From a virus, in UHGV virus genome UHGV-0127428: 30,373 bases of DNA; one strand, 5' to 3'. The translations under genes and the position numbers were made by a program. Of the stretch, positions 4,198 to 30,373 are shown in pieces (the first letter of the stretch is position 1; each line of letters starts with the position of its first letter). The notes under the pieces were generated by a model that was not told the DNA's origin, searched no databases, and saw nothing but the letters and a program-made list of their open reading frames with translations.

Positions 4198-4502
4198 TGA
4201 CCACTTTTACCGACAAAGAACTGATTAAAGAAATTAAAGAGCGTATCAGCAGCCTTGACGTGCGAGACGATATTGAGCGCCGTGCTTATGAAATCGCACT
4301 CCTATCTCTGGAAGTAGAACCAGATGAACGCGAAGCTTATGAATTATTCATGGAAAAGCGTTTCGGTGACTTAGTAGATCGTCGGAGAGCAAAAAACGGC
4401 GATAACGAATACATGGCATGGGATATGACTCTCGGTTGGATCGTCTGGCAGCAACGAGCTGGTATCCATTTTTCAACAATGTCACAGCAAGAGGTGAAAT
4501 AA
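4197..4502 (+). CDS. yfdT: YfdT-like protein (101 aa)
   Basis: 101-aa ORF; ATG overlaps the stop of the previous gene; position and length match YfdT. Confidence 0.5.
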   Translation: MTTFTDKELIKEIKERISSLDVRDDIERRAYEIALLSLEVEPDEREAYELFMEKRFGDLVDRRRAKNGDNEYMAWDMTLGWIVWQQRAGIHFSTMSQQEVK

Positions 4503-4852
4503 TGGAGCCATACAGCCTCACACTCGATGAGGCCTGTCATTTTCTCAAGATATCCAGACCGACTGCCATTAACTGGATACGCACAGGGCGTCTTCAGGCA
4601 ACACGCAAAGATCCCACTAAGAATAAATCTCCTTACCTCACAACACGACAAGCCTGCATTGCGGCTCTTCAGTCTCCGCTGCATACTGTCCAGGTGAGCG
4701 CGGGTGATGGCATAACAGAGGAAAGAAAATGTCACTCTTCCGCAGAGGTGAAATATGGTACGCCAGTTTCACATTGCCGAACGGTAAAAGATTTAAACAG
4801 TCTCTTGGAACAAAGGACAAAAGGCAGGCGACAGAACTCCATGACAAGCTAA
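4502..4852 (+). CDS. xis: P22-type excisionase (Xis)
   Basis: ATG at 4502 overlaps the yfdT stop (taATGg). The 116-aa product ([38 protein letters not shown]...) resembles P22-family Xis and overlaps the int start, as is typical. Confidence 0.7.
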
Positions 4853-5892
4853 AGGCTGAAGCATGGCGGGTCAGCAAACTTGGTGAAATACCTGATATAA
4901 CGTTCGAGGAAGCGTGTGTCAGGTGGCTTGAAGAGAAAGCACATAAAAAATCACTGGACGATGACAAAAGCCGGATCGGATTCTGGCTTCAACATTTCGC
5001 AGGGATGCAACTAAGAGACATCACTGAATCAAAAATTTATTCAGCGATGCAGAAAATGACAAACCGGCGTCATGAGGAAAACTGGAAACTCAGGGCAGAA
5101 GCATGCAGAAAAAAAGGGAAACCTGTTCCAGAATACACGCCAAAACCAGCGTCCGTTGCAACGAAGGCTACGCATCTTTCATTTATAAAGGCCCTGCTAA
5201 GAGCCGCAGAGCGTGAATGGAAAATGCTTGATAAGGCACCAATTATTAAAGTGCCTCAACCGAAGAATAAACGTATCCGCTGGCTGGAGCCTCATGAAGC
5301 ACAAAGGCTGATTGATGAATGTCCGGAGCCATTAAAGTCTGTTGTTGAATTTGCACTGGCAACAGGCTTAAGACGCTCGAACATCATCAACCTTGAATGG
5401 CAACAAATAGACATGCAGCGCCGGGTGGCATGGATAAACCCGGAAGAGAGTAAATCAAACCGCGCAATTGGCGTTGCGCTGAATGATACTGCATGTCGCG
5501 TATTGAAAAAACAAATCGGGAATCATCACCGTTGGGTATTTGTTTACAAGGAAAGCTGTACCAAACCAGACGGAACGAAAGCGCCAACGGTCAGGAAGAT
5601 GCGGTATGACGCAAACACAGCCTGGAAAGCGGCGCTGAGACGAGCAGGTATTGATGATTTCAGATTTCACGACTTGAGACACACCTGGGCAAGTTGGCTG
5701 GTTCAAGCCGGAGTCCCGTTGTCAGTGTTACAGGAAATGGGAGGCTGGGAGTCTATCGAAATGGTTCGTCGATATGCTCACCTCGCACCTAATCACCTTA
5801 CCGAACACGCACGGCAAATAGACTCGATCCTGAACCCATCGGTCCCAAATTTGTCCCAGTCAAAAAATAAGGAAGGTACTAATGATGTGTAA
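4729..5892 (+). CDS. int: P22-type tyrosine integrase
   Basis: 387 aa; the N-terminus [27 protein letters not shown] matches my recollection of P22 Int. Catalytic signature present ([29 protein letters not shown]). Stop lies immediately before an att core copy. Confidence 0.9.
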
Positions 5893-14910: not shown

Positions 14911-14931
14911 AGTTTTCTCCTTCTCCTGTTA

Positions 14932-16586: not shown

Positions 16587-16612
16587 CAAATCAACACAGA
16601 AGGAAAATGAAA

Positions 16613-17164
16613 ATGGCTAATATTGGATACATTAGGGTATCGACTGTCCAACAAAACACAGACCGTCAATTAGCTGGAGTAACTCTTGATAAAGTCTTTG
16701 AAGATAAAGCGTCAGGCAAGAATACCCAGCGCCCACAGTTTGAGGCAATGATGAACTATGTGCGTGAAGGTGATGTTTTGCATGTTCACAGCATTGATCG
16801 ACTTTGCCGTAATACAGCCGACCTACTGGCAACGGTTGAGCAATTAACAGAGCGCGGCGTGTCTGTGCATTTCCATAAAGAAGACTTTAAGACAGGGAAG
16901 AACTCTCCCGCAGGGAATATGATGCTCACAGTGCTTGCAGCAGTGGCACAAATGGAACGTGAAATGATGCTTGAGCGGCAACGTGAGGGGATCGCCGCAG
17001 CTAAGGCCGCTGGACGTATAGCAAAACGTGGTAATGGAAAAGCAATTGATCGAGCGGGAATTGTTGCCGCTCTCGCGAATGGTGGATCAATTCGGAGCGT
17101 AGCAAAAGATTTCAGTGTCAGCACACAGACGGTGCAACGTATCAAGAAAGAGCAGGAAGCGTAA
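16613..17164 (+). CDS. serine recombinase (resolvase/invertase family)
   Basis: N-terminal MANIGYIRVSTVQQ with the catalytic Ser, plus a C-terminal HTH-like tail (SIRSVAKDFSVSTQTVQRI). The start could instead be the ATG at 16607. Confidence 0.8.
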   Translation: MANIGYIRVSTVQQNTDRQLAGVTLDKVFEDKASGKNTQRPQFEAMMNYVREGDVLHVHSIDRLCRNTADLLATVEQLTERGVSVHFHKEDFKTGKNSPAGNMMLTVLAAVAQMEREMMLERQREGIAAAKAAGRIAKRGNGKAIDRAGIVAALANGGSIRSVAKDFSVSTQTVQRIKKEQEA

Positions 17165-17489
17165 TGCCTCCTGATATTTGAGAATTGTCGCTGCGTGGAC
17201 CTGACGCCGCTGATCTTCGCGTTAAACATTGATCACGTTTGCGCCGATTTCAGATAAAAAGGCAGCTATTAAGCAATACGTAACTTTTACAATTAGTGAA
17301 ATTATCTAAAACACAAGTTATATAGATGAGAAAATGAAATATTATCTTGAACAAATCAAACAAAACAACACATCATCTTGTTGACACCATGCAACGTGAA
17401 TAGTAAGCTATTATATGTGAAAATTTGCACATTGCATGCAATAAAAAATAAATGATACCTTATTGTTGTTAAATCAATAGGGGGTATCT

Positions 17490-17648
17490 ATGCGCTTTAT
17501 CTTATCCATTTTAAAAACCTGCAGAACCACAATTACTTTAGCTGTAATTGTTACCATCATATACCTCATCTATTTTACCCCTCGAGATAAAATCGATTCA
17601 CTAGCGATCATCGTTCATGCAATGGCTACATTAACTAAAAAACTTTAA
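17490..17648 (+). CDS. small hydrophobic peptide (52 aa)
   Basis: Strong SD (agggggt) before the ATG; MRFILSILKTCRTTITLAVIVTIIYLIYF... is a predicted single transmembrane helix; followed by a hairpin near 17663-17700. Confidence 0.35.
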   Translation: MRFILSILKTCRTTITLAVIVTIIYLIYFTPRDKIDSLAIIVHAMATLTKKL

Positions 17649-17714
17649 TAATTTCACTATCAGGCGCATAAACACATCTTTGATCGCTGGATGTGTTATG
17701 CGCCTACTGGTGAT

Positions 17715-17867
17715 TCAATCCTTAAGCCATTTCAACTCACTAAGGAGTTTTCTTTCTTCGTTCTCTCTCTGTTTACGCTCTAGCCAGGCTTTTCCTTCTG
17801 GCGTAGACAGGAACTTACGAGCGTGAATCTTGCGGTTATTACGTTTTATAGCTGCAATGTTTTTCAT
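17715..17867 (-). CDS. small basic protein (50 aa)
   Basis: ATG with gaggc SD; MKNIAAIKRNNRKIHARKFL...; convergent with the hydrophobic peptide gene. Confidence 0.3.
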   Translation of the reverse strand: MKNIAAIKRNNRKIHARKFLSTPEGKAWLERKQRENEERKLLSELKWLKD

Positions 17868-18457
17868 CGTGTTGCCTCTGTATTCATATGAAAATTAACA
17901 AGTTACATACTACACAGGGAGACTACGCATAAAACACAATACAAGTAAAGATACATTTTCAAGACAATAGGAGCCATAAAGCGCCTTTGATGGTTATACC
18001 AAAAAATAAGCGCCGTAGGCGTATCCACTAAAAAGGGCTTTTTCACAAAAGCTATGAAGTCTTAGCAGTTCTTCTCTTATCAGGCACCCGTTGTACTCCG
18101 GTGGACGAAACCGTGCTAGAGCTTGATTCTTTCCCGATCAAGTTAGGTTTTGAAGAGGTGGGCTTTGATCCACTATTGCACTTAAAACTCTTCCCATCAT
18201 TTAGCCTGTTTATCCTCTGCAACGTCTCACGACGTGTAGCATCATTGGACACCGCGCCAGGTGTGGAACATCTTGCTAAGAGTTTTGGTAGAAGGTTTAG
18301 AGACGGTGGCACGTCTTCCAGCTTCAAAGGAACTTGTTACGAGGTTGAGCCTGGGAACTACTCGCCCATACGTGTTACACTACCAAAGCCCATAACAACG
18401 TATAGGCGTTTGTAAGTGATAACAGAAGATACAATTTCTTAGAGAAGTTAAGCTAAG

Positions 18458-18519
18458 TTATTGATTTTCTTAATGGTGCCGATAATAGGAGTCGAACCTA
18501 CGACCTTCGCATTACGAAT
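18458..18519 (-). repeat. att core copy 2 carrying a 46-nt 3' fragment of tRNA-Thr (18474-18519)
   Basis: The reverse complement of 18474-18519 equals the tRNA-Thr(CGU) sequence from the anticodon loop to the CCA end (ATTCGTAATGCGAAGGTCGTAGGTTCGACTCCTATTATCGGCACCA). Similarity to the tRNA stops at 18520, so this is a displaced partial copy, not a gene. Flank ttattgatttt matches the other two copies. Confidence 0.8.
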
Positions 18520-18624
18520 CTGTAGCACCAATCATAACTATCTGTTTTAGCAAGCATTAACCGCATTCACTAAGCTATAGTTGATGGCACAAACAGAAAG
18601 TTGATGCATGATGTTGCCATGTGT

Positions 18625-18644
18625 ATGGCACAAATACGGCACAA
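18625..18644. repeat. 20-bp direct repeat atggcacaaatacggcacaa, also at 30271-30290; candidate integrase arm-type site
   Basis: Perfect 20-bp copy just inside each end of element C; a half-copy gatggcacaaa at 18583-18593. The right-hand copy lies within the 3' end of the int coding sequence. Confidence 0.4.
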
Positions 18645-18751
18645 CAATCTTAAAACATGTAGCCACGCATCCACAGAAGAGCACAAAGCCTTGCAATCCA
18701 GTGCAAAGCTTTGTGTGTCTCAGTTTTGTCTCATAGGTAACTCTGTGTTAA

Positions 18752-19042
18752 CTACGATGCAAGAATCCATACCAATAAGCATCCGATAATTGGGAAAGAA
18801 AAATCCATCAGGCTTGCCACATCCCATGCACGCGGATCAAAACCGCCCCACCACGGCATATTCATACGCTTGCCATGCCCGAACATTTCAATCCAGCGAT
18901 ATTCTGCCTGGGTATGTTCACGCGCAATGAAGAACGTACAACCGGCTATCGCTCCGTAAGCCCAGTTTCCGGTAAAAAGGCCAATCAGTACCTGCGCAGC
19001 CACAGCACAAAGCGCATGAAGTAAGGGGCTTATATCCATCAT
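18752..19042 (-). CDS. small integral membrane protein (96 aa, about three predicted TM helices)
   Basis: Hydrophobic segments LLHALCAVAAQVLIGLF, AYGAIAGCTFFIA and FSFPIIGCLLVWILAS; divergent from the GT2 gene. Confidence 0.45.
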   Translation of the reverse strand: MMDISPLLHALCAVAAQVLIGLFTGNWAYGAIAGCTFFIAREHTQAEYRWIEMFGHGKRMNMPWWGGFDPRAWDVASLMDFSFPIIGCLLVWILAS

Positions 19043-19323
19043 AAATTCTTCGACGAAACCACAGCATAATTTCTTTTGTTATTAAATCGGAAAACATTGT
19101 AACATGCGTTACTGGATTACTTGCTTCACTGTGAATGATATACATGATAGAATCTGCAACTCAAATCATATAAAACTTAAGCCGTTCCGCGTTTTATGCC
19201 CGTTGCTTCCACGGGCTATTTTCACAAAGATCACTCACAAAAATAATTATATTCACTTTTACTCTAATAAAGAATAAAATAATCAATCGTCAATTTGTAC
19301 CATTAATTTTGTTTCAAGCCTTC

Positions 19324-19352
19324 CCCGCTTTCGCGAGAATGCGGGGTTTTTT
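19324..19352 (+). terminator. rho-independent terminator-like hairpin
   Basis: ccccgc ... gcgggg stem followed by ttttttat, in the AT-rich intergenic region between the membrane protein gene and the GT2 gene. Confidence 0.4.
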
Positions 19353-19632
19353 ATATGGACATAACTTCCCACCCACTATTTGTACACTTATAATTCAGAT
19401 TCGCTGAAAGACGTTCAGAATGTACTTTGACAGATTTAATCATGTTTCACTTATCACCAACAAAATCATCACCAAGAAAACTATTGCACACATTAACTAT
19501 ACCTCGTCGCATTGCAGCATGGTATGCAGATGACATCATTAAATGATGTTACAATGCTGAGATATAATGCTTCATGTTATGATGATAGCATTTTGAACAT
19601 TCATAAACACTACTAATATTAGAGGCTACGAT

Positions 19633-20937
19633 ATGAGAAATGATATTACTGCCACGTCTGAAAATATAGTGGATTTTTTTAAACAGACATCATTAAATGA
19701 CTACATAAAAAAAGCATGGCTATACAATGAAAATTGCTTCGTTGTTGATTTTGAATATAAGAGCGTGAAATTTGCTCTGGATTTCTCATATGATCAAACA
19801 ATCGATAAACAAAATTTAAATGTTGATTTCGTACTAAGAAGCAATCCGTTTAACTTCACAATTGCGAAGGGGAAAAATAAAGAACGTATATCATCAGAGG
19901 CAAATCTTACATCTGCATTGGCTTCTTCCCTTCTAAAAATAACAAGTGTAATTAACATCATTAACTCTTGTCGCCCTATTGATGTTAGTGTAGTTATACC
20001 TGTACATAACCGCGAAAAACTTATTCTTGAATGTATTAACTCACTTAATAACCAAACAATTAACAAGGATCGTTTTGAGGTTGTTTTCATCGATGATTGC
20101 TCAAGTGACAAAAGCATTGCCGCTATAGAATATAATATATCACCAGATATTAATTACAGAATTATCCGCCGCGAAGTTGGTTCTGGCAACGCTTCAACTC
20201 CACGCAATGAGGGTATAAAATCAGCAAAAGGTCGTTATATTTTTTTCATGGATTCTGATGATTATATTGACGAAACTCTTCTTGAGAGAGGGATGCAAAT
20301 TGCTGATAAAAATAACAGTGATGTTGTTTACTTCAAAATTGCATCAGATGGAAGTCGTGAGGTGCCGATCCGTCCATACAAAGTAAAAATTGTAGATAAA
20401 GCCGATATAACCAAGCACCATCTATTGCGGTCATTAACTATATTCAAATTCTTCAGAAGAAACATGCTTAAAGAGCATAACATACTCTTTAATCCTGCTA
20501 TCACTGTAGCTGAAGATAAAATATTCATGGTTCACGTTTTGTCTGTGGCCAAGAATATATCCATTCTTGCCGACAAAGATTATTATCACATAACACTTCA
20601 TGATGGAAGTCATTTATCACGACAAAAATTCCCTCTTGAGGATAGGCATTTCATTCTCAACTCGATCATTAACACTATTTACTTTTGCGAAAAAACGGAT
20701 GAAGAAAAGGCCAAGCTTTACAATGCGTGGCTGGTGATATGCCTTGAAATGATGGAAAAGGTATGTGGTAAAGCAGGTGGCAACGAGCAAAAGAAACGGA
20801 TGTTCTTTAACATGCTTTCAACAGCTTTCAATATCCGCTCAGATTTAGTAAATCAGGATATGATTTATCCCCCTCAGCGTAAGTTCATCAAACCTTTTTT
20901 ACAAAATAATTATGAAGGTTTTATAGCTGAAATTTAA
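19633..20937 (+). CDS. family-2 glycosyltransferase (GT2) with an N-terminal extension of unknown function
   Basis: GT2 core VSVVIPVHNREKLILECINSLNNQ...FEVVFIDDCSSD...YIFFMDSDDYID with a DxD motif, preceded by about 115 aa of unknown sequence; no obvious TM segment; very AT-rich codon usage. Confidence 0.75.
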   Translation: MRNDITATSENIVDFFKQTSLNDYIKKAWLYNENCFVVDFEYKSVKFALDFSYDQTIDKQNLNVDFVLRSNPFNFTIAKGKNKERISSEANLTSALASSLLKITSVINIINSCRPIDVSVVIPVHNREKLILECINSLNNQTINKDRFEVVFIDDCSSDKSIAAIEYNISPDINYRIIRREVGSGNASTPRNEGIKSAKGRYIFFMDSDDYIDETLLERGMQIADKNNSDVVYFKIASDGSREVPIRPYKVKIVDKADITKHHLLRSLTIFKFFRRNMLKEHNILFNPAITVAEDKIFMVHVLSVAKNISILADKDYYHITLHDGSHLSRQKFPLEDRHFILNSIINTIYFCEKTDEEKAKLYNAWLVICLEMMEKVCGKAGGNEQKKRMFFNMLSTAFNIRSDLVNQDMIYPPQRKFIKPFLQNNYEGFIAEI

Positions 20938-20943
20938 AACATT

Positions 20944-20962
20944 GCCCAGCATGTAGCTGGGC
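20944..20962. terminator. hairpin between convergent GT2 and tailspike genes
   Basis: gcccagc atgta gctgggc perfect 7-bp stem; lacks a strong T-run. Confidence 0.3.
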
Positions 20963-20983
20963 ATACATTAAAAGTATCACATG

Positions 20984-23377
20984 TCAACCATTTGGTATTG
21001 ACTTTAATAATCTTTCCAGATAATTAATCCTTGATGTGATATTAGCAATATTCTGCTCATGGTTATGATATAGTGCGCTCATTGCCAGAAACATTAACTC
21101 GTCATAGCGCACTGATAATTTCCTTCCTGATTCTACAAGTAACCTTATTTCACCCGTTTCATACTCTTCTTCCTCTGTGATTTCATCATGCTGGCCCGAT
21201 TCTTCATCAATCAAAATTTTTCTGGTTACATTTCTTGTTGCATAGACTTTCTCGTACTCGTCATCCCACTCTTCATAGCAAAGAACTCCATAAGAAAATG
21301 CATCAAGCCCTTCAGATTCAAAGATGGATTGTATATCTTGCGCAATTACACCGATATGCTCACGCGCTGATAAGCCTTTTTCTTTTACAGCATCCTTCAT
21401 TCTGAATTTTTTTATCAGCGGGTAAATAGCCATTCCAACCCGTAGTTCTGCATCAGATAATGAAGTTTCATCCTGCTTGTAATTTCTGTCGCTGGTTACG
21501 ATGGGACTATTATTGATATACAGGTTTCTGACAGTATTCGACTGTGTACCAATATCATAAAGATTTGAACCTGATGGTCGAAAATGACCTAATTCTGTTA
21601 ATACCCATCTGTCACGCAAGCCGTCACTCTCTCCCATGGTTCCAAAGTAGAAAGCAACCGGGATATTGTCTCCGGAAGGATTACCTCTTGTGACGCATTT
21701 AATGCGTGCGCATTGCACAGCCTTACTACCTGTATCACCAGCCCATACATGAGTACCCAATACATCCCCTGTCTGCAGAGCTCCAAAATTATCAGTTGAT
21801 ACAACACCAGAGCGAGACTTATACATTATTGCTCTTGGTCCTTCTGCGGTGTCTGACTGATGCCGGGAAACCCATGAGTTGCTCATCCCTTCCGTGCCGT
21901 TTGAAGCTAACTGCATTCCACCAGTAATTCCGCCATCAAGAAACAATATAGGGTTATCCCGGTTAGTTTGAATACCCTTTCTTGTTGGCCAAACTGTCCA
22001 GTGAAAAGTATCATTGTACTCCCTTACTCCATATTTGAACTCCGGGGAGCCAGAACTATGAAGACCAGTATTACTGGATACAGAACGGCTTGCTTTGCTT
22101 TGCACTACCGAACCAGACCTGCCTATATCAAACAGATATACATTTTTCCCGTTCTCAGCAACTCCTTTATATGTGCATATCCCCAGCGTTAAAACATACC
22201 CACTCTCCGTTCTAATTACTGTTAGGGACTCAGGCTCTTTATAAACAGGAGTTCCTGTACTGTCAGATTTTGCTTCATCATCACCAACAGTTGAAATATC
22301 TACTCGCTCAATAAACCTGCCTGTTAAGTCAAATACGTAAATATAATTAGTCATGCCAACATACGTATGTGACTCAAGTATGTAAATGTATGCCCCATCG
22401 CAAGCAATTGATTGGGTAAATGCTTCTTGTGATGGTTTTTGATAGCTAAACTCAACTAAATAATCATCACTATAATCAGTTTTATGAGCTCTGTTATTCC
22501 ACATGCTGACTATGTCGAAAACACGAACCGTGCAGGTAATTCCATCCGATGAAATTTTCTTGGCAAGTAGATAGTTTTCACAACTTGATACAGTTGGAGT
22601 AGAGCTTGCGCTCATTCCATCATAGGGGAACAACTTCCAGGTGATAAAACCTTCAGATACTCCGTTGGTTGTCCCTGTGTAACTCAATATATTTTCCATC
22701 GAAATACATTGATTGGCGGCATCGGTTCCATAAGGCTTCGATGTCCACAGCACGACAGTACCATCAGGATTATGATGCAATCCAAGCCCCTGATGCCCAA
22801 GTTCAGTAGAACGGGTTCTGTCGTATCTTCCTAGTTCACCAGAATTCGTCACGTCAAAGGCATTAATGCAATAACCGTATGCTGTGGTAGATGATAAAGT
22901 AAAAATCTTGTCGTTAATTTCATCATAACAACACCCCTGAATGACCGCATATAACCCCCCCGCACCTTCAGTTCTGCGCAACGTGTGTCTGGTGTTATAT
23001 ACTTTTGGCATTCCGGAAAATATCAATGGCTCTCTTTTATCTCTTAATTTAAGATCACCAATCGCAATTCGTTTACTGCCATCACGAATAAAAGAACCAT
23101 TTATATAGCTATTTTCAATAAAACTTTTAGTAACAAAAAATGCTCTTCCACTTAAATCAATAACCCTATTTTTTATATCCATTTCCAACGCGACAAATGC
23201 TTCAGTATCATCGCTAATCCCATCCCCCTTAGCTCCAAAATAAAGAGGAGACATATTTAGCATATCATTTGATAATACTTTTTGTTTAAACTGATCCGGG
23301 TCATACTTCAGCACATTAGGAAAATAGAACTGCTGCGCACCGTACGCATCATAAACAGCCATAGAATGGCCTTGCAC
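20984..23377 (-). CDS. tailspike/tail-fibre protein, 5'-truncated: end of a P22-type head-binding domain, beta-helix domain, C-terminal intramolecular chaperone (S74-like) domain
   Basis: N-terminus [29 protein letters not shown] matches the end of the P22 tailspike head-binding domain, then a pectate-lyase-like motif [14 protein letters not shown]. The C-terminal region (SDAELRV...[10 protein letters not shown]...) matches the S74 chaperone pattern. P22-like sequence continues upstream of the GTG start to a stop at 23429-23431. Confidence 0.65.
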
Positions 23378-23460
23378 AGTTACGAATTTGGCAATCTGTC
23401 CGTTATATACCGGGTATCGTTGAATTCGTTAAACAGCAAGAGCAGTTATTCTGCGGAGCA

Positions 23461-24318
23461 TTGACTGAACAGACGGTGACATGGGCTAAGGAAAGCCAGT
23501 TTGCAATTCAGTATTTCCAGAAAAATGATTACCTGGCTAAAACAGCACTGGCAAATCCAACCAGCGCACAGAACGCCATCATCAATGTTGCGGCGATCGG
23601 TATCACCTTAAACCCGGCTAGCAAACTGGCTTATCTGGTTCCGCGCGACGGCATGGTGTGCCTTGATATCAGTTATATGGGATTGCTCCATATTGCAATG
23701 GAGTCTGGTGTTATCTCATGGGGTCAGGCAAAACTTGTTCATGCTAACGATACCTATGAGTCAAACGGGCTTGATAAAGCACCAACCCATAAATACAACG
23801 CCTTCGGTGATCGTGGTGATATTGTTGGCGTTTACTGCACAGTTAAGACGCCAGCAGGTGATTATCTAACGGAAGAGATGAGTCTGGCTGAAATTGAGGC
23901 TGTAAGGAAAACAAGCAAGGCAGCATTCAGCGATAAAGGACCATGGGTAAATCACTGGAATGAGATGGCGCGAAAGACGGTCGTAAAGCGTGCAAGCAAG
24001 TATTGGCCTAAGGCATCACGTCTTGATAGTGCTATTCACGTACTAAACGAAGAAGAAGGTGTGTGGACTGAACCAGTTATGCCGCACAAATCAGAGGAAG
24101 ATATCCGCGAAGATGAACGGAAACGACAGCAGGAAATTATGGAAAAAGCACAACTTCTTTGTGATGAAATGGCTCAGGCTGAAAACATGGATGATTTGAA
24201 GCGATATTTTGCAGAAGCATATCGCCTGACATCTGGAATGAAATTGCAGCAGAACGTACAAGCCATTTACATAGAATGCAAAGCGAAACTGGAGGTTGCC
24301 AGTGAGCAAACTGTATGA
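23461..24318 (+). CDS. recT: RecT-family single-strand annealing recombinase
   Basis: GPWVNHWNEMARKTVVKRASKYWP resembles the conserved RecT motif (GPWVTHWEEMAKKTAIRRLFKYLP in Rac RecT as recalled). TTG start with ggag 7 nt upstream. Confidence 0.75.
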   Translation: MTEQTVTWAKESQFAIQYFQKNDYLAKTALANPTSAQNAIINVAAIGITLNPASKLAYLVPRDGMVCLDISYMGLLHIAMESGVISWGQAKLVHANDTYESNGLDKAPTHKYNAFGDRGDIVGVYCTVKTPAGDYLTEEMSLAEIEAVRKTSKAAFSDKGPWVNHWNEMARKTVVKRASKYWPKASRLDSAIHVLNEEEGVWTEPVMPHKSEEDIREDERKRQQEIMEKAQLLCDEMAQAENMDDLKRYFAEAYRLTSGMKLQQNVQAIYIECKAKLEVASEQTV

Positions 24319-24784
24319 AATTGCCAATGAATACGCAAAATTGATGGATTCAGATTTAGAACCAGAGATGATTGCTGACACAATAGAAGGCATGGAAGGA
24401 GAATTTACCGATAAAATAGAGCAACTTCTTTCCGTCATTAAAAATGAATCTGGTTATGCTGAACGCCTCAAGGAAGAGGCAAAGTCACTGAATGAGCGAG
24501 CCGCAGTAATTCAAAATAAGATTGACAGCATCAAATCATATATAGCGTCATCGCTTGAAATGGTTGGCAAGAAAAATATTCGAGCAGGTATTCACCAGGT
24601 AACAATCCGCAAACCGTCAGAAATTGTAGAAATCATCGACTCAAGCGCCCTTCCTCCTGAATACGTTGAGTTCGAAACGACAATTAAAGCCGACAAACTG
24701 GCAATCAAACACCAACTAAAAGAAGGAATAAATATCCCCGGTGCTCAACTCAAAGTTGGGAAACCTTCACTTCTTATCAAATAA
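24302..24784 (+). CDS. Gp157-like protein (siphovirus Gp157 family), commonly next to phage recombinases
   Basis: About 160 aa, helical, immediately downstream of recT; GTG at 24302 with a ggagg SD. Family assignment is from memory of the general pattern. Confidence 0.45.
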   Translation: MSKLYEIANEYAKLMDSDLEPEMIADTIEGMEGEFTDKIEQLLSVIKNESGYAERLKEEAKSLNERAAVIQNKIDSIKSYIASSLEMVGKKNIRAGIHQVTIRKPSEIVEIIDSSALPPEYVEFETTIKADKLAIKHQLKEGINIPGAQLKVGKPSLLIK

Positions 24785-24795
24785 CGGTATCGCCT

Positions 24796-25110
24796 ATGAA
24801 AAAGACTCCATGGGAGAAATGGGAAGTCGATTTCTTGCGCGAAGTAGCGGCGACAATGCCAGTTGAAGTTATCGCTGAAAAACTGGAAAGGACTGAAAAA
24901 GCAGTTATGGCGAAAGCAACAAGGATTGGCGCTGACATTGTTAGCCGACTTCGTGGAAGACGCTGGACAAGAGCTGAAGTATCACTTTTCGGTAAGTTCT
25001 CCGCAGAAGAAATAGCAATTGCAACCTGCCGCTCAATTTATTCAGTAAGAGCTATGCGATACAAGCTAAAAAAACTTGATGAAGAAAGAGCAGGCATACG
25101 AATAAATTAA
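24796..25110 (+). CDS. hypothetical protein with an internal tandem duplication of a ~40-aa W-containing helical motif
   Basis: Two similar halves ([32 protein letters not shown]... and [31 protein letters not shown]...), suggesting a duplicated HTH-like unit. Confidence 0.45.
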
Positions 25111-25126
25111 CAAAGAGGAATTTACC

Positions 25127-25291
25127 ATGAGAGGACTTGCATACAATCCCGGCATTCTTCCGGCAGAAATGATTATTCGCCAACGCGTAAAGCCAATGCC
25201 ATCGAGAGAGGAATTGCTTAAAAGAAATTCTTTTCCATCAGTGAATCAAAACAAATATCTGAATGCGATGTGGCGGAGTGGGAAGAAATGA
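25127..25291 (+). CDS. small hypothetical ORF (54 aa)
   Basis: ATG with aagagga SD; stop overlaps the start of the next gene (ATGA); no homology recognised. Confidence 0.25.
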
Positions 25292-25830
25292 AACAAATGT
25301 CACTAATTGAGATGGATGGTTTTCTGAAAGGTAAATGCATCCCACGAGATTTAAAGGTTAACGAAACAAACGCTGAATATCTGGTGCGTAAATTTGCTGA
25401 AGCGGAGGCCAAGATTTCAGCTCTGTCCGAGGACCAACAGAAAGCGATTGAGTCAATTAAGCAGGCTGATGCAGCTGTTAAGTTGGCACACGAGAAGTTT
25501 TCGGCGCTGGCGGCGGAGAATGCGGGGCTGAAACACGCAATGGCCGTAACTCTTGAGCATGTGTCGGTCACGGATGCAGGGCAGGCCGGAGTTGCTGCAA
25601 TGATTATCAACGATGCCCTGCACCACAGCGAAAACCCAGCCACCGATGCTTTCATGGCTGAAGTACGGGCCAGCGAACTTGATAGCTTGGCTGGCTTGGC
25701 TGAAACAATGTTGGTCAAATTCTCCAATCAGCAGTGCTCATCTGATATGCATGAGGTTGTTGGCTGGAAGATGGTTCTCCAGCAGGCCAATAATCGCGCC
25801 GCCCAGCTTCGCAAAGGAGGCAACCAGTGA
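25288..25830 (+). CDS. protein with a YfdS-like N-terminal domain and a divergent Ala-rich C-terminus
   Basis: [36 protein letters not shown] parallels [35 protein letters not shown] of the yfdS-like gene at 3835; the rest is unrelated. Confidence 0.5.
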
Positions 25831-26513
25831 GCGAAATTAATTACCAGGCACTGCGTGAGGCGGCGGAACGTGCAATTCCAGCAATGGAACGCCTGTTAAT
25901 GTTGCCAGCTGATGATGATTTGTTAAGTGAACAGGAACTTAAAGATTATGGTGTGGATATTGATGCGCTCAACGCCTTCAAATTTCTGGACGGACCAGAA
26001 ACCGTGCTGGCACTACTGGATGAACTGGAAAGAAACCAGCAATACATCAAAAGCCGTGATCATGAGAACGAGGATATTGCGCTAACGGTAGGGAAGCTGC
26101 GCGTTGAGCTGGAAGGCAAAGACAGCAAAATAGCCAATCTTACCGCCGAACGCGATGCTCTTCGTGAAGGTGAGATGGGCGACGCTAGGCATAGCAACAC
26201 ACGGGCCGCAGCTGATATCTACTTCCAACTGGTCGAGGAGTGCGAAATTCCTGCTGGCGGATCTCTGGTCGAGTACGTTGACGATATGCGCGAGAAGCTG
26301 GAAGCCGCAGAGAAGCGCATTGCAGAGTTAGAAAGTGGTTCTCAGGCACAAAAGTTAGTTGAAGCAATCATTGTTGCGATAGAAAACGAACAGGAAAGGC
26401 TTTTTGATGAAGATTACCTAATGGATTCGAAAGAATGCATTGACGTAATTCGTGAAGAAGTAAAGCGATGGAATGATTCCCGTGCCGCTGGCATTCGCAT
26501 CAAAGGAGAGTGA
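25827..26513 (+). CDS. Ea22-like coiled-coil early protein candidate
   Basis: GTG start with aaggagg SD overlapping the upstream stop; acidic, predicted coiled-coil protein in the early-left operon. Confidence 0.35.
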   Translation: MSEINYQALREAAERAIPAMERLLMLPADDDLLSEQELKDYGVDIDALNAFKFLDGPETVLALLDELERNQQYIKSRDHENEDIALTVGKLRVELEGKDSKIANLTAERDALREGEMGDARHSNTRAAADIYFQLVEECEIPAGGSLVEYVDDMREKLEAAEKRIAELESGSQAQKLVEAIIVAIENEQERLFDEDYLMDSKECIDVIREEVKRWNDSRAAGIRIKGE

Positions 26514-26514
26514 G

Positions 26515-27270
26515 ATGATTCACTATCACGGTGGGCCTATTACTCCGGATACGTGCGCCATGAGAGCATGGAAAGGGCGACATGCGTTTATCAGTTTTGC
26601 GCATTCAGGCCAGATCAATCTCGCGGCTGAATACTGTCAGTCGTTCGCGCTGGACAACGGTGCATTCACCGCCTGGAAAGCAGCTGGCAAAAACAAAATC
26701 GACTGGAGCGATTACTACGAGTTTGTTGCTCGCTGGAAGAATCACCCAGGATTCGATTTTGCCATTATCCCGGATGTTATTGATGGCGGAGAGGAGAAAA
26801 ATGATGCGCTTCTGAATGAGTGGCCTCACGGAAAACTAGCTGGCGTTCCAGTGTGGCACATGAATGAAAGTGACGAGCGATTTATTCATTTGTGCAATCA
26901 GTTTCCGCGAGTGGCTATCGGTAGTTGTGGCGACTATGACGTAAAGCGCCCAACTCTTGCGGTAGCCAGAATGAAAGACCTGATTCGTCACATTGTTGAT
27001 GAGTATGGTCAGCCGGTTACGAAACTACATGGATTGCGCATGTTAAATCCGCAGATATTCACAAAATTACCCTTAGCCAGCGCAGATAGTACGAACGTCG
27101 CTCGAAACATCGGTATTGATAAAACCTGGTCTGGGGCTTATGCACCTGCAAGTAAAGAGACACGCGCAGCATTAATGGTAGAACGGATTGAGGCACACAA
27201 TAGCCCTGGTTCTCTTGCGTATTGTGAACAACGCGACCGCTTTGAAATGCAATTGCAACTAGCAGTTTAA
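26515..27270 (+). CDS. TGT-superfamily (DpdA-like DNA/tRNA-guanine transglycosylase-like) protein candidate
   Basis: Start at the ATG at 26515 with aaaggagag SD. The spacing H-x6-P (HGLRMLNP) ... D (ASADS) ... ARN-x-G (NVARNIG) parallels the TGT segment HLFGVGRP...DMFDCV...PTRNARNG as I recall it; FALDNGAF resembles the DSGGFQ substrate motif. No zinc-binding CxCxxC motif. Confidence 0.4.
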   Translation: MIHYHGGPITPDTCAMRAWKGRHAFISFAHSGQINLAAEYCQSFALDNGAFTAWKAAGKNKIDWSDYYEFVARWKNHPGFDFAIIPDVIDGGEEKNDALLNEWPHGKLAGVPVWHMNESDERFIHLCNQFPRVAIGSCGDYDVKRPTLAVARMKDLIRHIVDEYGQPVTKLHGLRMLNPQIFTKLPLASADSTNVARNIGIDKTWSGAYAPASKETRAALMVERIEAHNSPGSLAYCEQRDRFEMQLQLAV

Positions 27271-27280
27271 GGACTAACAA

Positions 27281-28132
27281 ATGACCACTATTACCAAAGA
27301 ACGTATTGAATTGTTCATTAAAAATCCGCTTGAAAACGGGCTTACTCGTGGCGAACAAATGGAACTGGCACGAATTGCACTGGCATCACTGGGAGCCGAG
27401 CCTGTTCTGTATCAGTCCTGCACTCGCCCCACCTGGAATAGCGGTGTTCCGTGGACGGAATGGAAAGAACGAAGTCGTGAGTGCTACGAAGACGATTTGC
27501 GCTTTACAGACACGCCTGACCATGCCGGTTGGATATACAAATGTCGAAAACTATATACCACTCCGCCAGCGCCGATAGCGTTAGAGGCCATTGAAAACGC
27601 AATTGAATACATCCGCAGTATCGCTTTTCACATCGATGAAGACGATTACCACGGCAAACATATTGCGTATTTCATGCAGCAAGCATTGGCCTGGCTGGAA
27701 GGGCATTCATGCAGCGACGACAGACAGGGCAAAGCCGAGAATCAACCAGTACGCGGCAACCAGGCTGCCGAATCCAATCGCGGTAATGAGTGGACTGGCA
27801 ATCCTGATATTGATAACGCCATCATCATGCTCGACCGCATAGATACGCTGGAAAATTGCGATGATGACCGTATTGAAGCTGTTAAGGCTGTTTTGCGTAG
27901 ACTGGCTGGCAACTATCCGGTAACTCCGGATGGTTGGATAAGCTGTAGTGATCGAATGCCGGAAGACACCAAAATGTTACTGGCATTTAGTCAAGGTGAA
28001 ATCGTGGCCGTATATTGGAACTGGGTTGTAAATCCAATTGATTACAAAAAATATAGAGCTTTCACGTATTTATCAGGAAATATCTTGGATGACGTAACTC
28101 ACTGGATACCGCTACCAGAGCCTCCACTTTGA
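27281..28132 (+). CDS. DUF551-domain protein
   Basis: The C-terminal ...VTHWIPLPEPPL matches the W-x-PLPEPP ending typical of DUF551 prophage proteins. Confidence 0.55.
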   Translation: MTTITKERIELFIKNPLENGLTRGEQMELARIALASLGAEPVLYQSCTRPTWNSGVPWTEWKERSRECYEDDLRFTDTPDHAGWIYKCRKLYTTPPAPIALEAIENAIEYIRSIAFHIDEDDYHGKHIAYFMQQALAWLEGHSCSDDRQGKAENQPVRGNQAAESNRGNEWTGNPDIDNAIIMLDRIDTLENCDDDRIEAVKAVLRRLAGNYPVTPDGWISCSDRMPEDTKMLLAFSQGEIVAVYWNWVVNPIDYKKYRAFTYLSGNILDDVTHWIPLPEPPL

Positions 28133-28228
28133 AAGCGAAGCTTATACATATCTTTTACATCAGCAATCTATTGTTAATCTCCAATCAATGTTACGTTGTC
28201 ATCTCACTCATGCTTTGGAGGTAGTGAT

Positions 28229-28408
28229 ATGTCTTGTCCAAAATGCGGTTCTGGAAATATTGCAAAAGAAAAAACAATGCGTGGATGGTCTGGTGATTAT
28301 GTGTGCTGCGATTGCGGATACAACGACTCTAAAGACGCATTTGGAGAGCGTGGTAAAAACGAGTTTGTCAAAATTAATAAAGAACGCGAAGGCAACGAAA
28401 AAAGCTAA
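28229..28408 (+). CDS. small zinc-ribbon protein (59 aa)
   Basis: MSCPKCGSG...CCDCGYND carries two CxxC pairs; ggagg SD 7 nt upstream of the ATG. Confidence 0.4.
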   Translation: MSCPKCGSGNIAKEKTMRGWSGDYVCCDCGYNDSKDAFGERGKNEFVKINKEREGNEKS

Positions 28409-28469
28409 TTTATTTATTCATATATGAAAACAATGTAACCAATATTCGATTTGAAGAACTGAAAGAACA

Positions 28470-28497
28470 CCAAGCCGCCTGATGGCGGTTTTTTATT
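28470..28497 (+). terminator. rho-independent terminator-like hairpin
   Basis: gccgcc tgat ggcggt stem followed by tttttatt. Confidence 0.45.
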
Positions 28498-28508
28498 GGA
28501 GACAAGAA

Positions 28509-28853
28509 ATGTCAGATTTGGCTATGAAGGTTTTGAAATGGCAATCGACTGGCGATGTCGGCATCAGTAGCGCAACTCTTGCCTCAATCGCATGTGGCCT
28601 GAAAAAGAATATCTATGGTCATCACTTCGGCGCTCCACATGATGCAGCCGATTTCCGGCGATGCGTTGCACTTGTTGAGCAGATTCCAGAAATCAGAGAT
28701 TCATTCGACAAGGTTGCAAAGCGCGTTCCGGCATTCAAAGGCATCCTCAACGAATGGGATTCGCTCGTTGCTCTGTTGAAGTCTGAAATGAAGATACACG
28801 AAAACAAAGCACCAGAGACTTACAGAAGAATTAGCGAGCTACGCAAGGACTAA
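28509..28853 (+). CDS. hypothetical protein (114 aa)
   Basis: ATG with ggag SD just after the terminator; the tool's longer alternative start lies inside the hairpin. Confidence 0.45.
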   Translation: MSDLAMKVLKWQSTGDVGISSATLASIACGLKKNIYGHHFGAPHDAADFRRCVALVEQIPEIRDSFDKVAKRVPAFKGILNEWDSLVALLKSEMKIHENKAPETYRRISELRKD

Positions 28854-28925
28854 CGCCTCACACTCGATGAGGCCTGTTCATTTCTCAAGATATCCAGACC
28901 TACCGCAATAATACCAACTCAATAA
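28854..28925 (+). pseudogene. remnant of the 5' end of a P22-type xis (no start codon)
   Basis: 28856-28903 is near-identical to 4516-4563 of the element A xis (cctcacactcgatgaggcctgt...ctcaagatatccagacc). It encodes [18 protein letters not shown] then diverges to a stop at 28923-28925. Confidence 0.55.
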
Positions 28926-28938
28926 ATGGAGATTCCAA

Positions 28939-29286
28939 GTGGAAGAAGAAATCTTCACTCGTGAAGAGGCAGCATCGTATCTGAAGGTAGACAAAGGCAC
29001 TATCACGCAGTGGATACGAAGTGGACGACTTCAGGCCGCAAAGATAAATCCAGATAAACCTAAAAGTCCATATCGCATTTGCAAGTCAGACTGCATTGCG
29101 GCGCTTAAGTCTGTGAGACACAATAGCGCGGTGAATGCGGTTGATGTGCAGGAGGTTAAAGCATGTCAATCAAACTACGCGGTGGCACGTGGCACTGTGA
29201 TTTCGTCGCGCCAGATGGATCAAGAGTTAGACGCTCTCTTGAAACATCGGACAAAAGGCAAGCGCAAGAACTTCACGATCGTCTGA
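28939..29286 (+). CDS. xis: excisionase (Xis), divergent paralogue of the element A Xis
   Basis: GTG start; TITQWIRSGRLQAAKINPDKPKSPY...CIAALKS parallels [25 protein letters not shown]...CIAALQS; overlaps the int start. Confidence 0.6.
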   Translation: MEEEIFTREEAASYLKVDKGTITQWIRSGRLQAAKINPDKPKSPYRICKSDCIAALKSVRHNSAVNAVDVQEVKACQSNYAVARGTVISSRQMDQELDALLKHRTKGKRKNFTIV

Positions 29287-30323
29287 AAGCAGAAGCGTGG
29301 AGAGTAAAAAATCTCGGGGAATCACCGAAAAAGCTATTCAAGGAAGCCTGCATACGGTGGCTGCGTGAGAAATCGGATAAGAAGTCCATTGATGATGACA
29401 AGAGCATTATATCGTTCTGGATGTTGCACTTCAGAGAAACCATTCTCTCTGACATAACAACAGAAAAAATAATGGAGGCGGTAGACGGGATGGAAAACCG
29501 CCGCCATCGCCTGAACTGGGAGATGAGCCGGGACAGGTGTTTGCGGCTTGGCAATCCAGTGCCGGAGTATAAACCAAAGCTGGCAAGTAAAGGAACGAAG
29601 ACGCGGCATCTGGCAATACTTCGCGCTATTCTCAATATGGCTGTTGAATGGGGATGGCTTGACAGGGCGCCCAAAATATCAACACCACGCGTTAAGAATG
29701 GACGAATCAGATGGCTTACAGAGGAGGAGTCGAAGCGCCTGTTTGCAGAAATTGCTCCTCATTTCTTCCCTGTGGTCATGTTTGCAATCACGACAGGCCT
29801 TCGCCGTTCCAACGTTACAGACCTTGAGTGGTCACAGGTCGATCTGGATAAGAAAATGGCATGGATGCACCCTGATGAAACAAAAGCTGGCAATGCGATC
29901 GGAGTTCCTCTTAACGAAACCGCATGCCAGATATTAAGAAAACAGCAGGGGCTCCATAAGAGATGGGTATTTGTCCACACCAAACCTGCCTACCGAAGCG
30001 ACGGAACAAAAACAGCAGCGGTAAGGAAGATGAGAACCGACAGCAACAAGGCATGGAAGGGAGCGTTAAAGCGGGCAGGCATTAGCAACTTCCGCTTCCA
30101 TGACCTGAGGCATACCTGGGCAAGCTGGCTGGTTCAGTCCGGTGTCTCTCTTCTTGCACTTAAAGAGATGGGAGGATGGGAAACTCTCGAAATGGTTCAA
30201 AGATACGCCCACCTTTCAGCCGGGCATCTCACCGAGCACGCGAGCAAAATCGATGCGATTATAAGTCGCAATGGCACAAATACGGCACAAGAGGAGAACG
30301 TAGTTTACTTAAATGTGAGGTAA
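29163..30323 (+). CDS. int: P22-family tyrosine integrase, second copy (diverged paralogue of the 4729-5892 integrase)
   Basis: 386 aa; [29 protein letters not shown]; stop lies 14 nt before the tRNA 3' end. Confidence 0.9.
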   Translation: MSIKLRGGTWHCDFVAPDGSRVRRSLETSDKRQAQELHDRLKAEAWRVKNLGESPKKLFKEACIRWLREKSDKKSIDDDKSIISFWMLHFRETILSDITTEKIMEAVDGMENRRHRLNWEMSRDRCLRLGNPVPEYKPKLASKGTKTRHLAILRAILNMAVEWGWLDRAPKISTPRVKNGRIRWLTEEESKRLFAEIAPHFFPVVMFAITTGLRRSNVTDLEWSQVDLDKKMAWMHPDETKAGNAIGVPLNETACQILRKQQGLHKRWVFVHTKPAYRSDGTKTAAVRKMRTDSNKAWKGALKRAGISNFRFHDLRHTWASWLVQSGVSLLALKEMGGWETLEMVQRYAHLSAGHLTEHASKIDAIISRNGTNTAQEENVVYLNVR

Positions 30324-30337
30324 CTTATTGATTTTAA

Positions 30338-30373
30338 TGGTGCCGATAATAGGAGTCGAACCTACGACCTTCG
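30338..30373 (-). tRNA. thrW: 3' portion of tRNA-Thr (thrW-type), cut by the window edge; att core copy 3
   Basis: The reverse complement of 30338-30373 equals the 3' 36 nt of tRNA-Thr(CGU) including the CCA end; preceded by the cttattgatttt flank. Whether the full gene continues beyond the window cannot be seen. Confidence 0.6.

What the first reader, a model, noticed from the sequence alone, without database searches (positions are those of the whole stretch)
28854..29286. Relic of an element-A-type xis upstream of a divergent xis-int cassette
A ~48-bp stretch (28856-28903) is near-identical to the 5' end of the element A xis but lacks the start codon and runs into a stop, and it is followed by a divergent, intact xis-int pair. 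This looks like a footprint of recombinational replacement of the integration module between related phages.
Basis: seen in the sequence. Interest (0 to 1): 0.4.

Follow-up and report, generated by a model that had tools for sequence, protein, structure and literature searches.

The report
Dead stub of an excisionase gene
A roughly 55-65-base leftover of the front end of a P22-type phage excision gene sits just before a different, working excision-integration gene pair; the same scar occurs in many well-known lambda-like phages, so it is an ordinary but neat footprint of module swapping.

Summary
Window 28855-28909 matches the 5' end of element A's xis (4515-4569) at 49/55, far above chance. 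It has no start codon and runs into TAA at 28923. An intact xis-int pair follows (28939-29286, 29163-30323).

- The stub did not arise between the two elements in this window.
- It is closer to P22/epsilon34-type xis alleles (50-51/52; 52/52 to one IMG/VR prophage) than to element A (89%).
- The identical stub, with the identical 3' junction, is in free phages mEp213, mEp043, HK542, HK446, HK75 and mEpX2.
- It precedes all 59 SfX-type xis genes that I sampled from IMG/VR.
- The same stub, cut at other points, precedes at least five or six other integration modules (lambda/HK022/HK97, 933W/2851, HK620/Sf6 and others).
- 798 of 5426 complete E. coli genomes match the query spanning the ORF114 3' end, the stub and the xis start.

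Start-codon loss by several routes, a frameshifting indel, a flat codon-position diversity profile and diversity equal to neighbouring synonymous sites all indicate a decaying pseudogene fragment. Upstream genes and downstream modules assort freely around it, which implies crossovers inside it.

It is a known kind of feature and of low to moderate interest.

The parts
28855..28909 (+). Core of the xis stub. It corresponds to nt 14-68 of a P22-family xis (codons about 5-23, the first helix-turn-helix helices). It has no start codon.
   Evidence: 49/55 to window 4515-4569; 51/52 to epsilon34 xis and 50/52 to P22 xis; 52/52 (28855-28906) to the L101 xis.
28907..28919 (+). Probable tail of the stub. 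AATAAT (28907-28912) stands where P22-type xis has a single C, followed by ACCAACT (28913-28919), which P22-type xis shares. The true 3' junction is probably near 28919/28920.
   Evidence: alignment to L101. Enterobacter asburiae L193 carries a diverged copy of the same joint and retains AACTG. This rests on only 7 nt, so it is tentative.
28923..28925 (+). TAA that closes the stub's former reading frame, 13 nt before the xisB start codon.
28855..28873 (+). Small hairpin GCCTCA-N7-TGAGGC followed by CTGTTCATTT, which looks weakly like a terminator. The same hairpin lies inside intact xis genes.
   Evidence: listed as terminator-like; the fold of 28840-28940 is no better than shuffles (z = -0.31).
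28482..28853 (+). Upstream gene, here called ORF114 (HK022 gp32 / HK022p30, 434 ORF114, phrog_1229; function unknown). Its stop codon abuts the stub.
   Evidence: annotations; phrog_1229, E = 7e-52. 80 of 113 sampled stubs carry an ORF114-type 3' end upstream; in some loci (HK542) this is only a 3' fragment.
28939..29286 (+). xisB, an intact SfX/mEp213-type excisionase (115 aa, GTG start, Shine-Dalgarno GGAG at 28928-28931).
   Evidence: 98% nt identity to mEp213 and HK542, annotated excisionase. HTH_17, E = 1.4e-8.
29163..30323 (+). intB, an intact SfX-type tyrosine integrase (386 aa).
   Evidence: Phage_integrase, E = 9e-35.
30334..30373 (+). att core and 3' end of tRNA-Thr (thrW) in reverse complement. 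It runs off the end of the window.
   Evidence: family D2; phage attP annotations ('similar to thrW tRNA'); tRNA-Thr next to proA in E. coli.
4502..4852 (+). Element A xis (116 aa, SfV/SfII/SfIV type, intact). Bases 4515-4569 are the stretch that matches the stub.
   Evidence: 99.9% to SfIV and 99.7% to SfV. HTH_17; translation.
4729..5892 (+). Element A int (387 aa), followed by a partial thrW att copy at 5903-5925.
18470..18509 (+). Third copy of the thrW att sequence. It marks the left end of element B, which carries the stub.

Best explanation
The stretch is a non-functional, decaying 5' fragment of a P22-family excisionase gene.

Proposed origin (inferred). In an ancestral lambdoid phage the accessory gene ORF114 was followed directly by a P22-type xis-int pair. 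A non-homologous joining event replaced that pair with an SfX-type xis-int pair. The break fell about 65-78 nt into the old xis. The stub's start codon was later lost through small deletions.

Inheritance (shown). The stub has since travelled with its neighbours through the lambdoid phage pool. This window simply inherited it with a defective prophage integrated at thrW.

Consequence (inferred). The stub stays about 90-100% identical to the starts of live P22/SfV-type xis genes and to the stubs in other phages. It therefore also works as a short patch of homology where crossovers swap whole integration modules. These crossovers would most likely be made by phage single-strand annealing recombinases, which tolerate short, diverged homology. 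Non-functionality is supported but not proven.
For: **It derives from a coding xis gene.**
- The stub encodes [18 protein letters not shown], which is the first part of the HTH_17 domain of Xis.
- It matches an intact xis allele (L101) at 52/52 and epsilon34 xis at 51/52.

**The ancestral layout still exists.**
- In L101 an ORF114 homologue is followed by TAAC, then CATGG, and an intact 116-aa xis plus a 387-aa int.
- In g341c and L072 the real ORF114 is followed by TAACTATGGAATCACACAGCC, with the xis ATG intact.

**The 5' end shows an erosion series.**

| State | Where seen |
|---|---|
| ATG intact | g341c |
| 10-nt deletion | mEp213 |
| 12-nt deletion | HK022, HK97, mEp234 |
| 14-nt deletion | this window, HK542, phage 2851 |
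| ATG changed to ATA | in two different stub classes (L026; L035 and near-identical loci) |
| ATGAAATAA (stop at codon 3) | several loci |

**The coding constraint is relaxed.**
- Diversity by codon position is 0.045/0.032/0.165 in intact xis, but 0.055/0.063/0.087 in the stubs.
- Stub diversity is 0.072. Third codon positions of the adjacent ORF114 give 0.068.
- The HK97-type variant carries a 1-nt insertion that shifts the frame.
- The spacing to the ORF114 stop differs by 0, 2 or 4 nt, so no reading frame is conserved.

**No regulatory signal was found.**
- No sigma-70-like promoter lies in 28400-29300.
- No cII-type TTGC-N6-TTGC site lies in the stub.
- The RNA fold is no better than shuffled sequence.

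**It is shared and old.**
- The identical junction precedes 59 of 59 SfX-type xis loci.
- A diverged copy of the same joint is in Enterobacter asburiae.
- 798 of 5426 E. coli genomes match the 155-bp query that spans the ORF114 3' end, the stub and the xisB start.

**Crossovers occur inside it.**
- Non-homologous upstream contexts assort with non-homologous downstream modules. ORF114 and SfV-orf101 each occur with the lambda class and with class c2. ORF114 and context U4 each occur with the SfX, c2 and 933W classes.
- There are 34 four-gamete quartets between 5' states and 3' junction classes.
- Phage Rad52-like recombinases recombine short, diverged homologies (PMC3945230).
- Element B itself encodes a RecT-like protein.
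Against: - The stub is retained upstream of every SfX-type xis sampled (59/59). This could hint at a role, for example as leader or spacer for xis expression, or as a weak terminator hairpin.
- All distinct 3' junctions fall within xis codons about 15-26, and no intermediate-length stubs were seen. Pure neutrality does not predict this. Nested, successive replacements or selection against a truncated DNA-binding peptide could explain it.
- The four-gamete argument assumes that each junction or deletion arose once. The change from the 12-nt to the 14-nt deletion could recur by slippage in a run of C.
- The IMG/VR samples are not independent and were ascertained with a 21-nt probe.
- I could not read the original HK97/HK022 or 434 sequence papers, so I cannot tell whether the stub has been described before.
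Confidence: 0.85

Rival explanations
1. Local event. The stub was created within this chromosome by recombination between the two neighbouring thrW elements, with element A's xis as the donor. This is what the first reader's title implies.
For: Both sequences lie in direct orientation 24.3 kb apart in one tandem array. Both share the same att site.
Against: The stub and its exact 3' junction are present in free phages and in 59/59 SfX-type modules elsewhere. The stub is 96-100% identical to P22/epsilon34/L101-type alleles but only 89% identical to element A. The three-base difference GCA/TCA versus CAT separates the allele families.
Confidence: 0.02
2. Functional element. The stub is kept because it does something for the downstream xis-int pair. 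Candidate roles are a weak terminator or RNA-stability hairpin after ORF114, a leader, or (in copies that keep the ATG) a 27-codon upstream ORF ending 13 nt before the xis start and coupling translation. It could also be a selected 'linker' for module exchange.
For: The hairpin with a T-rich tail is flagged at 28855-28873. Retention is 59/59. Nine SfX-type loci keep the ATG, giving an upstream ORF that stops next to the xis Shine-Dalgarno sequence. The junction positions cluster.
Against: Most copies have lost the start codon, by at least six different routes. The fold is not better than shuffled sequence. Diversity equals neighbouring synonymous sites, and the codon-position profile is flat. 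Lambda-type modules that carry the stub have their own strong terminator right after it, and lambda itself works without the stub.
Confidence: 0.12
3. Chance or low-complexity similarity with no common descent.
For: None found.
Against: The score is about 26 standard deviations above shuffles. The 23-mer is unique to the two sites. The reading frame matches the HTH_17 region of Xis. More than 100 further copies have graded truncation points.
Confidence: 0.01

Closest known systems
Mosaic 'novel joints' and gene remnants in lambdoid phage genomes. This is the Hendrix-Casjens picture of non-homologous joining followed by selection, known from the HK97/HK022, HK620 and Sf6 comparisons. I cite those comparisons from my own knowledge; I could not read the papers here.
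   Same: High identity to a gene of another phage stops abruptly. The fragment has lost coding integrity. It sits at a gene or module boundary. Its flanks have different ancestries in different phages.
   Different: This one joint region is reused by at least six different integration modules. It also appears to act as a crossover patch afterwards. I found no published description of this particular stub.
P22-family excisionase, Xis (116 aa, Pfam HTH_17), as in P22, epsilon34, ST64T, SfV, SfII and SfIV.
   Same: The sequence is 89-100% identical to nt 14-65 of these genes, in the same orientation and in the same position relative to the upstream gene.
   Different: It has no start codon. Only about 18-22 codons remain, so the HTH is incomplete. 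It stops at an out-of-context TAA. It is not a gene.
Short conserved 'linker' or boundary sequences proposed to mediate module exchange (the Susskind-Botstein modular theory), together with relaxed homologous recombination by Rad52-like phage recombinases (De Paepe et al. 2014, PMC3945230).
   Same: It is a 50-65 bp patch, shared by phages that differ on both sides of it. The combinations of flanks require crossovers within it.
   Different: The patch is a by-product (a pseudogene stub), not a dedicated site. There is no evidence that it is selected for this role.
The exo-xis / b-region boundary of lambda, HK022 and 434 (orf55, ORF114, terminator, pI, xis).
   Same: HK022, HK97 and 434 carry the same ORF114 plus stub. 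In them it is followed by a terminator, the cII-dependent pI promoter and a lambda-type xis.
   Different: Lambda itself lacks both ORF114 and the stub. In this window the stub leads into an SfX-type xis with no terminator or pI motif.

Membership tests
Functional P22-family excisionase gene (Xis, HTH_17) | Start codon with a ribosome-binding site | tested here: not met
   No ATG, GTG or TTG lies in frame between TAA 28851 and TAA 28923. Relative to L101 and g341c, 14 nt that include the ATG are deleted.
Functional P22-family excisionase gene (Xis, HTH_17) | Full-length ORF (116-123 aa) with a complete HTH_17 domain (residues about 6-51) | tested here: not met
   Only about 18-22 homologous codons remain. 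In contrast, 75 of 76 intact-class genes are 116 or 123 aa long, and HTH_17 spans residues 6-36 (XisA) and 6-51 (XisB).
Functional P22-family excisionase gene (Xis, HTH_17) | Purifying selection on the coding frame (third codon position much more variable than the first and second) | tested here: not met
   Stubs give 0.055/0.063/0.087; intact genes give 0.045/0.032/0.165. A frameshifting 1-nt insertion occurs in the HK97-type variant.
Mosaic-joint gene remnant of lambdoid phages | High identity to a gene of another phage that ends abruptly at a joint | tested here: met
   Identity to the L101 xis is 52/52 and then collapses after 28906/28919. The endpoints are sharp and differ by class in HK022, phage 2851 and g341c.
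Mosaic-joint gene remnant of lambdoid phages | The same remnant is flanked by unrelated sequences in different phages | tested here: met
   At least four upstream contexts and at least six downstream modules were found.
Mosaic-joint gene remnant of lambdoid phages | Existence of the un-rearranged parental arrangement | tested here: met
   L101 has an ORF114 homologue followed by an intact xis-int pair. g341c and L072 have the true ORF114 followed by the xis ATG.
Intrinsic (Rho-independent) terminator | Stable GC-rich hairpin followed by a run of U | tested here: inconclusive
   The stem is 6 bp with a 7-nt loop, followed by a CTGTTCATTT tail. The overall fold has z = -0.31. The same hairpin lies inside intact, transcribed xis genes. 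In vivo termination cannot be tested here.
Module-boundary homology patch ('linker') | Crossovers occur within the shared patch | tested here: met
   Four-gamete combinations of non-homologous flanks were found. This is an inference that assumes each junction arose once.
Module-boundary homology patch ('linker') | The patch is maintained by selection for that role | not testable with these tools
   Diversity is at the neutral level, which argues against selection. Retention in 59/59 loci is compatible with simple inheritance.
cII/C1-activated pI-type promoter | TTGC-N6-TTGC flanking a -35 region just upstream of or inside the xis start | tested here: not met
   No such site lies in 28855-28938, even allowing one mismatch. 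It is present after the stub in HK022 and HK97 and in lambda.

The most novel reading that the evidence does not exclude
The xis stub may be more than debris: it may be a maintained module-boundary element. On this reading its near-identity to live P22/SfV-type xis starts is kept up by repeated gene conversion. Phages that carry it gain the ability to swap attachment-site specificity by homologous crossover within about 50 bp. The tight clustering of all junctions at xis codons about 15-26 would reflect selection against expressing a truncated DNA-binding Xis. Copies that keep the ATG could also use the 27-codon upstream ORF to tune xis translation.
Probability: 0.12. Interest if true: 0.55.

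Novelty: new member of a known kind. Interest (0 to 1): 0.3.

Why it matters
The stub gives a concrete, countable example of how lambdoid phages exchange integration modules. One short pseudogene stub at the xis start is shared by phages that use at least six different xis/int systems. The combinations around it show that crossovers happen inside roughly 50 bp.

It has practical uses. It is a handy marker for the left edge of the integration module when annotating prophages. It warns against calling a 'partial excisionase' there. It also warns that tandem thrW prophages share short direct repeats. It does not reveal a new biological mechanism.

Tried and rejected
Aligning 4100-5960 against 28450-30373 simply aligned xisA with xisB and intA with intB at about 60% nt identity. 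It hid the stub, so a local alignment was needed.
- **tRNA search.** It found nothing, because only the 3' end of thrW is inside the window. tRNA scans of nine other loci, prompted by the GGTTCGATTCC motif, were also negative. That motif lies upstream of AlpA-type genes.
- **Promoter, cII-site and RNA-structure tests of the stub.** All were negative or not significant.
- **A true ORF114 upstream of an intact xis.** The single apparent case, L116, is a false positive of my fuzzy pattern. Only the diverged homologue in L101 and the ATG-retaining stubs of g341c and L072 show that layout.
- **First attempt to type downstream integrases by the largest ORF**. It mis-assigned several loci, so I classified by junction sequence instead.
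- **First diversity calculation for ORF114**. It was spoiled by loci that carry only a 3' fragment of the gene. I repeated it on the 51 loci (43 distinct sequences) with a full-length ORF114.
- **Literature searches**. None found a description of this stub. The original HK022, 434 and HK97 sequence papers are not in the library.

Full report
**1. The observation**

- Window 28855-28909 aligns without gaps to 4515-4569, the start of element A's xis (ATG at 4502). Identity is 49/55, with exact runs of 23 and 20 nt.
- The local score is 40. For 200 shuffles it is 12.2 +/- 1.1, with a maximum of 15.5.
- The 23-mer occurs only at these two places; none are expected by chance. The repeat finder reports the pair independently as family D3.
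- In the xis frame the stretch reads [23 protein letters not shown]. It begins immediately after the TAA of the upstream ORF (28851-28853), contains no start codon, and ends at TAA 28923-28925.
- It is followed by GGAG (28928-28931) and then a GTG-initiated xis of 115 aa at 28939-29286 (HTH_17). After that comes a 386-aa tyrosine integrase at 29163-30323.
- The two Xis proteins are 43% identical and the two Int proteins 56% identical.

**2. Context**

The thrW att core TGGTGCCGATAATAGGAGT occurs three times, at 5907, 18474 and 30338. The window's right end is the reverse complement of the tRNA-Thr 3' end. The window is therefore a tandem array of three integrative elements at thrW.

| Element | Coordinates | Content |
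|---|---|---|
| A | to 5925 | xis-int 99.7-99.9% identical to Shigella phages SfV and SfIV |
| C | 5926-18492 | Own recombinase, a capsid-E-like protein, a Dit-like protein and a resolvase |
| B | 18493-30356 | See below |

Element B is only about 11.9 kb. It holds a GT2 glycosyltransferase, a tailspike that has lost nearly all of its head-binding domain, RecT-like and Mu-Gam-like genes, ea-region genes, ORF114, the stub, and xis-int. It is a prophage remnant with a large internal deletion.

**3. The stub is not peculiar to this window**

- Megablast of 28188-29400 against GenBank phages shows that mEp213 and mEp043 match from 28435 to the end of the query at 29400, right through the stub into xis-int, at 98%.
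- HK542, HK446, mEpX2, HK75 and ECP1 match from 28805 onward.
- HK022, 434, Gally and several Stx phages match up to 28904 and then diverge.
- Direct alignment confirms this.
  - mEp213 has ORF114, the stub and the same SfX-type xis.
  - HK542 has an unrelated upstream gene, then a 49-bp 3' fragment of ORF114, then the stub and the same xis.
  - HK022 has ORF114 and the stub up to ...CCAGACCTACC. It then has a terminator, the cII-dependent pI motif TTGCGTGTAATTGC and a lambda-type xis.
- Lambda itself has neither ORF114 nor the stub.

**4. Where the stub comes from**

- A 55-nt blastn search shows that the stub matches the 5' end of annotated xis genes at 51/52 in epsilon34 and 50/52 in P22. 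It matches SfII (element A's type) at only 49/55.
- An IMG/VR prophage, L101, carries an ORF114 homologue followed by TAAC-CATGG and an intact 116-aa xis plus a 387-aa int. Its xis is 52/52 identical to window 28855-28906 and again matches at ACCAACT, 28913-28919.
- Salmonella phage g341c has the true ORF114 followed by TAACTATGGAATCACACAGCCTCACAC. The xis start codon is still present there, and the gene is cut about 41 nt into the shared segment and joined to an HK620/Sf6-type module.
- The parental arrangement, ORF114 directly followed by a P22-type xis, therefore exists. The direction of descent is from gene to stub.

**5. Decay**

- The 5' edge forms a series: ATG intact (g341c); 10-nt deletion (mEp213); 12-nt deletion (HK022, HK97, mEp234); 14-nt deletion (this window, HK542, phage 2851).
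- In other lineages the ATG has changed to ATA, in two different stub classes. In others the start reads ATGAAATAA, with a stop at codon 3.
- The HK97-type variant has a 1-nt insertion.
- Diversity by codon position is 0.045/0.032/0.165 in intact genes but 0.055/0.063/0.087 in stubs.
- Stub diversity (0.072) equals third-position diversity of the adjacent ORF114 (0.068), where the first and second positions give 0.021 and 0.012.
- No promoter, no cII site and no significant RNA structure was found. A 6-bp hairpin at 28855-28873 looks weakly like a terminator, but it is equally present inside intact xis genes.

**6. One boundary, many modules**

I scanned IMG/VR and GTDB genomes for a 21-mer of the stub, and IMG/VR for the SfX-type xis start. 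Together with the window copies and the GenBank phage loci fetched earlier, these gave 191 usable sites: 78 intact xis genes and 113 stubs.

The stubs fall into distinct 3' junction classes:

| Class | Module after the stub | Junction |
|---|---|---|
| b | SfX type (this window) | ...CCTACCGC / AATAAT... |
| c | lambda/HK022/HK97 type | ...CCTACC / ATCGCCGC... |
| c2 | Same terminator as class c, then an AlpA-type gene | as c |
| d | 933W/2851 type | ...CCTGTWCAT / ATCTGATAG... |
| e | HK620/Sf6 type | ...AAGATATCC / CTTCC... |
| f | Another lambda-like xis-int with its own terminator and pI-like motif | ...AAGATATCCA / ATAACC... |
| other | At least one further type | not classified |

- All 59 SfX-type xis loci with enough upstream sequence carry the stub with the same junction.
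- A diverged copy of that joint is in Enterobacter asburiae.
- 798 of 5426 complete E. coli genomes match window 28806-28960, which spans the ORF114 3' end, the stub and the xisB start. 96 match over at least 80% of its length.
- Of the intact-class genes, 75 of 76 are full length. Stubs are either short (about 65 nt or less) or absent.

**7. Crossovers inside the stub**

- The 5' states and the 3' classes are almost fully combinatorial, giving 34 four-gamete quartets.
- More robustly, non-homologous upstream contexts combine with non-homologous downstream modules.
  - ORF114 and the SfV-type orf101 each occur with classes c and c2.
  - ORF114 and a third context (U4) each occur with classes b, c2 and d.
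  - The context typical of one intact-xis family (U2) also precedes SfX-type stubs.
- The stub is the only sequence these loci share between the varying flanks. The simplest account is homologous exchange within it, including exchange between stubs and live xis genes.
- This fits experimental evidence that Rad52-like phage recombinases recombine short, diverged homologies (PMC3945230).
- It remains an inference. It assumes that each junction arose once, and the samples are not independent.

**8. Verdict**

The event, however, is old and shared. It is not a transaction between elements A and B, and the donor allele was P22/epsilon34-like rather than SfV-like.
- The best explanation is an inert, decaying pseudogene stub at a mosaic joint, which incidentally serves as a crossover patch.
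- Two points remain unexplained. All junctions cluster at xis codons about 15-26, and the stub is retained in every SfX-type module sampled.
- I found no published description, but I could not read the original HK022, 434 and HK97 papers.
- The kind of feature is well known. I rate it a new member of a known kind, with interest about 0.3.

Noticed in passing
window 5903-5925, 18470-18509, 30334-30373: There are three copies of the thrW 3'-end att sequence. The window is therefore a tandem array of three integrative elements (A, C and B) at tRNA-Thr.
   Followed up: partly
window 5926-18492: Element C is a 12.5-kb island. It has its own tyrosine recombinase (5981-7345, DUF6538 plus Phage_integrase), a Dit-like tail protein (7426-8085, minus strand), a major-capsid-E-like protein (10361-11389, minus strand) and a serine resolvase (16607-17164). 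It looks like a capsid-encoding phage satellite. The same island sits next to thrW in E. coli NZ_OZ261667.
   Followed up: partly
window 18493-30356: Element B is a deletion remnant of a P22-like prophage. The tailspike gene (20984-23377, minus strand) keeps only the last 28 or so residues of the head-binding domain. It lies next to a RecT-like gene (23461-24318) that matches its profile only from position 46. All morphogenesis, lysis, immunity and replication genes are missing.
   Followed up: partly
window 28472-28491 versus lambda (L131): In lambda the terminator AAGCCGCCTGATGGCGGTTTTTT is followed directly by pI and xis. Here, and in HK022 and 434, it is followed by ORF114 plus the stub. 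In HK022 a second terminator ending GCGGCTTTTT comes after the stub. ORF114 plus the stub therefore looks like an insertion or deletion bounded by two similar terminator tails.
   Followed up: partly
IMG/VR and phage loci L007, L008, L026, L084 and others (junctions within the stub): All independent 3' junctions lie at stub positions about 31-65 (xis codons about 15-26), several within 1-3 nt of each other (41/42; 50/52). No stub of intermediate length was found: 75 of 76 longer copies are full-length genes. The cause is unexplained. It could be selection against a truncated HTH protein or nested, successive replacements.
   Followed up: partly
loci L133, L139, L147, L158, L170, L134, L167: Some SfX-type modules keep the stub's ATG. 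This gives a 27-codon upstream ORF ([27 protein letters not shown]) that stops 13 nt before the xis GTG and overlaps its Shine-Dalgarno region.
   Followed up: no
window 3853-3943 and 25309-25399: A second direct repeat between elements A and B: 91 nt at 75% identity. It lies in the 5' ends of homologous ea-region genes (N-terminus like HK97 gp37).
   Followed up: no
window 4502-4852 and 28939-29286: Both xis ORFs are 115-116 aa and overlap the following int by 124 nt. The recognisable HTH_17 domain covers only about the first 36-51 residues.
   Followed up: no
window 26473-27270: An ORF in element B matches the PHROG family annotated queuine tRNA-ribosyltransferase (phrog_887, E = 2.5e-103, covering profile positions 8-267 of 509). 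It has no Pfam hit at E <= 0.001.
   Followed up: no
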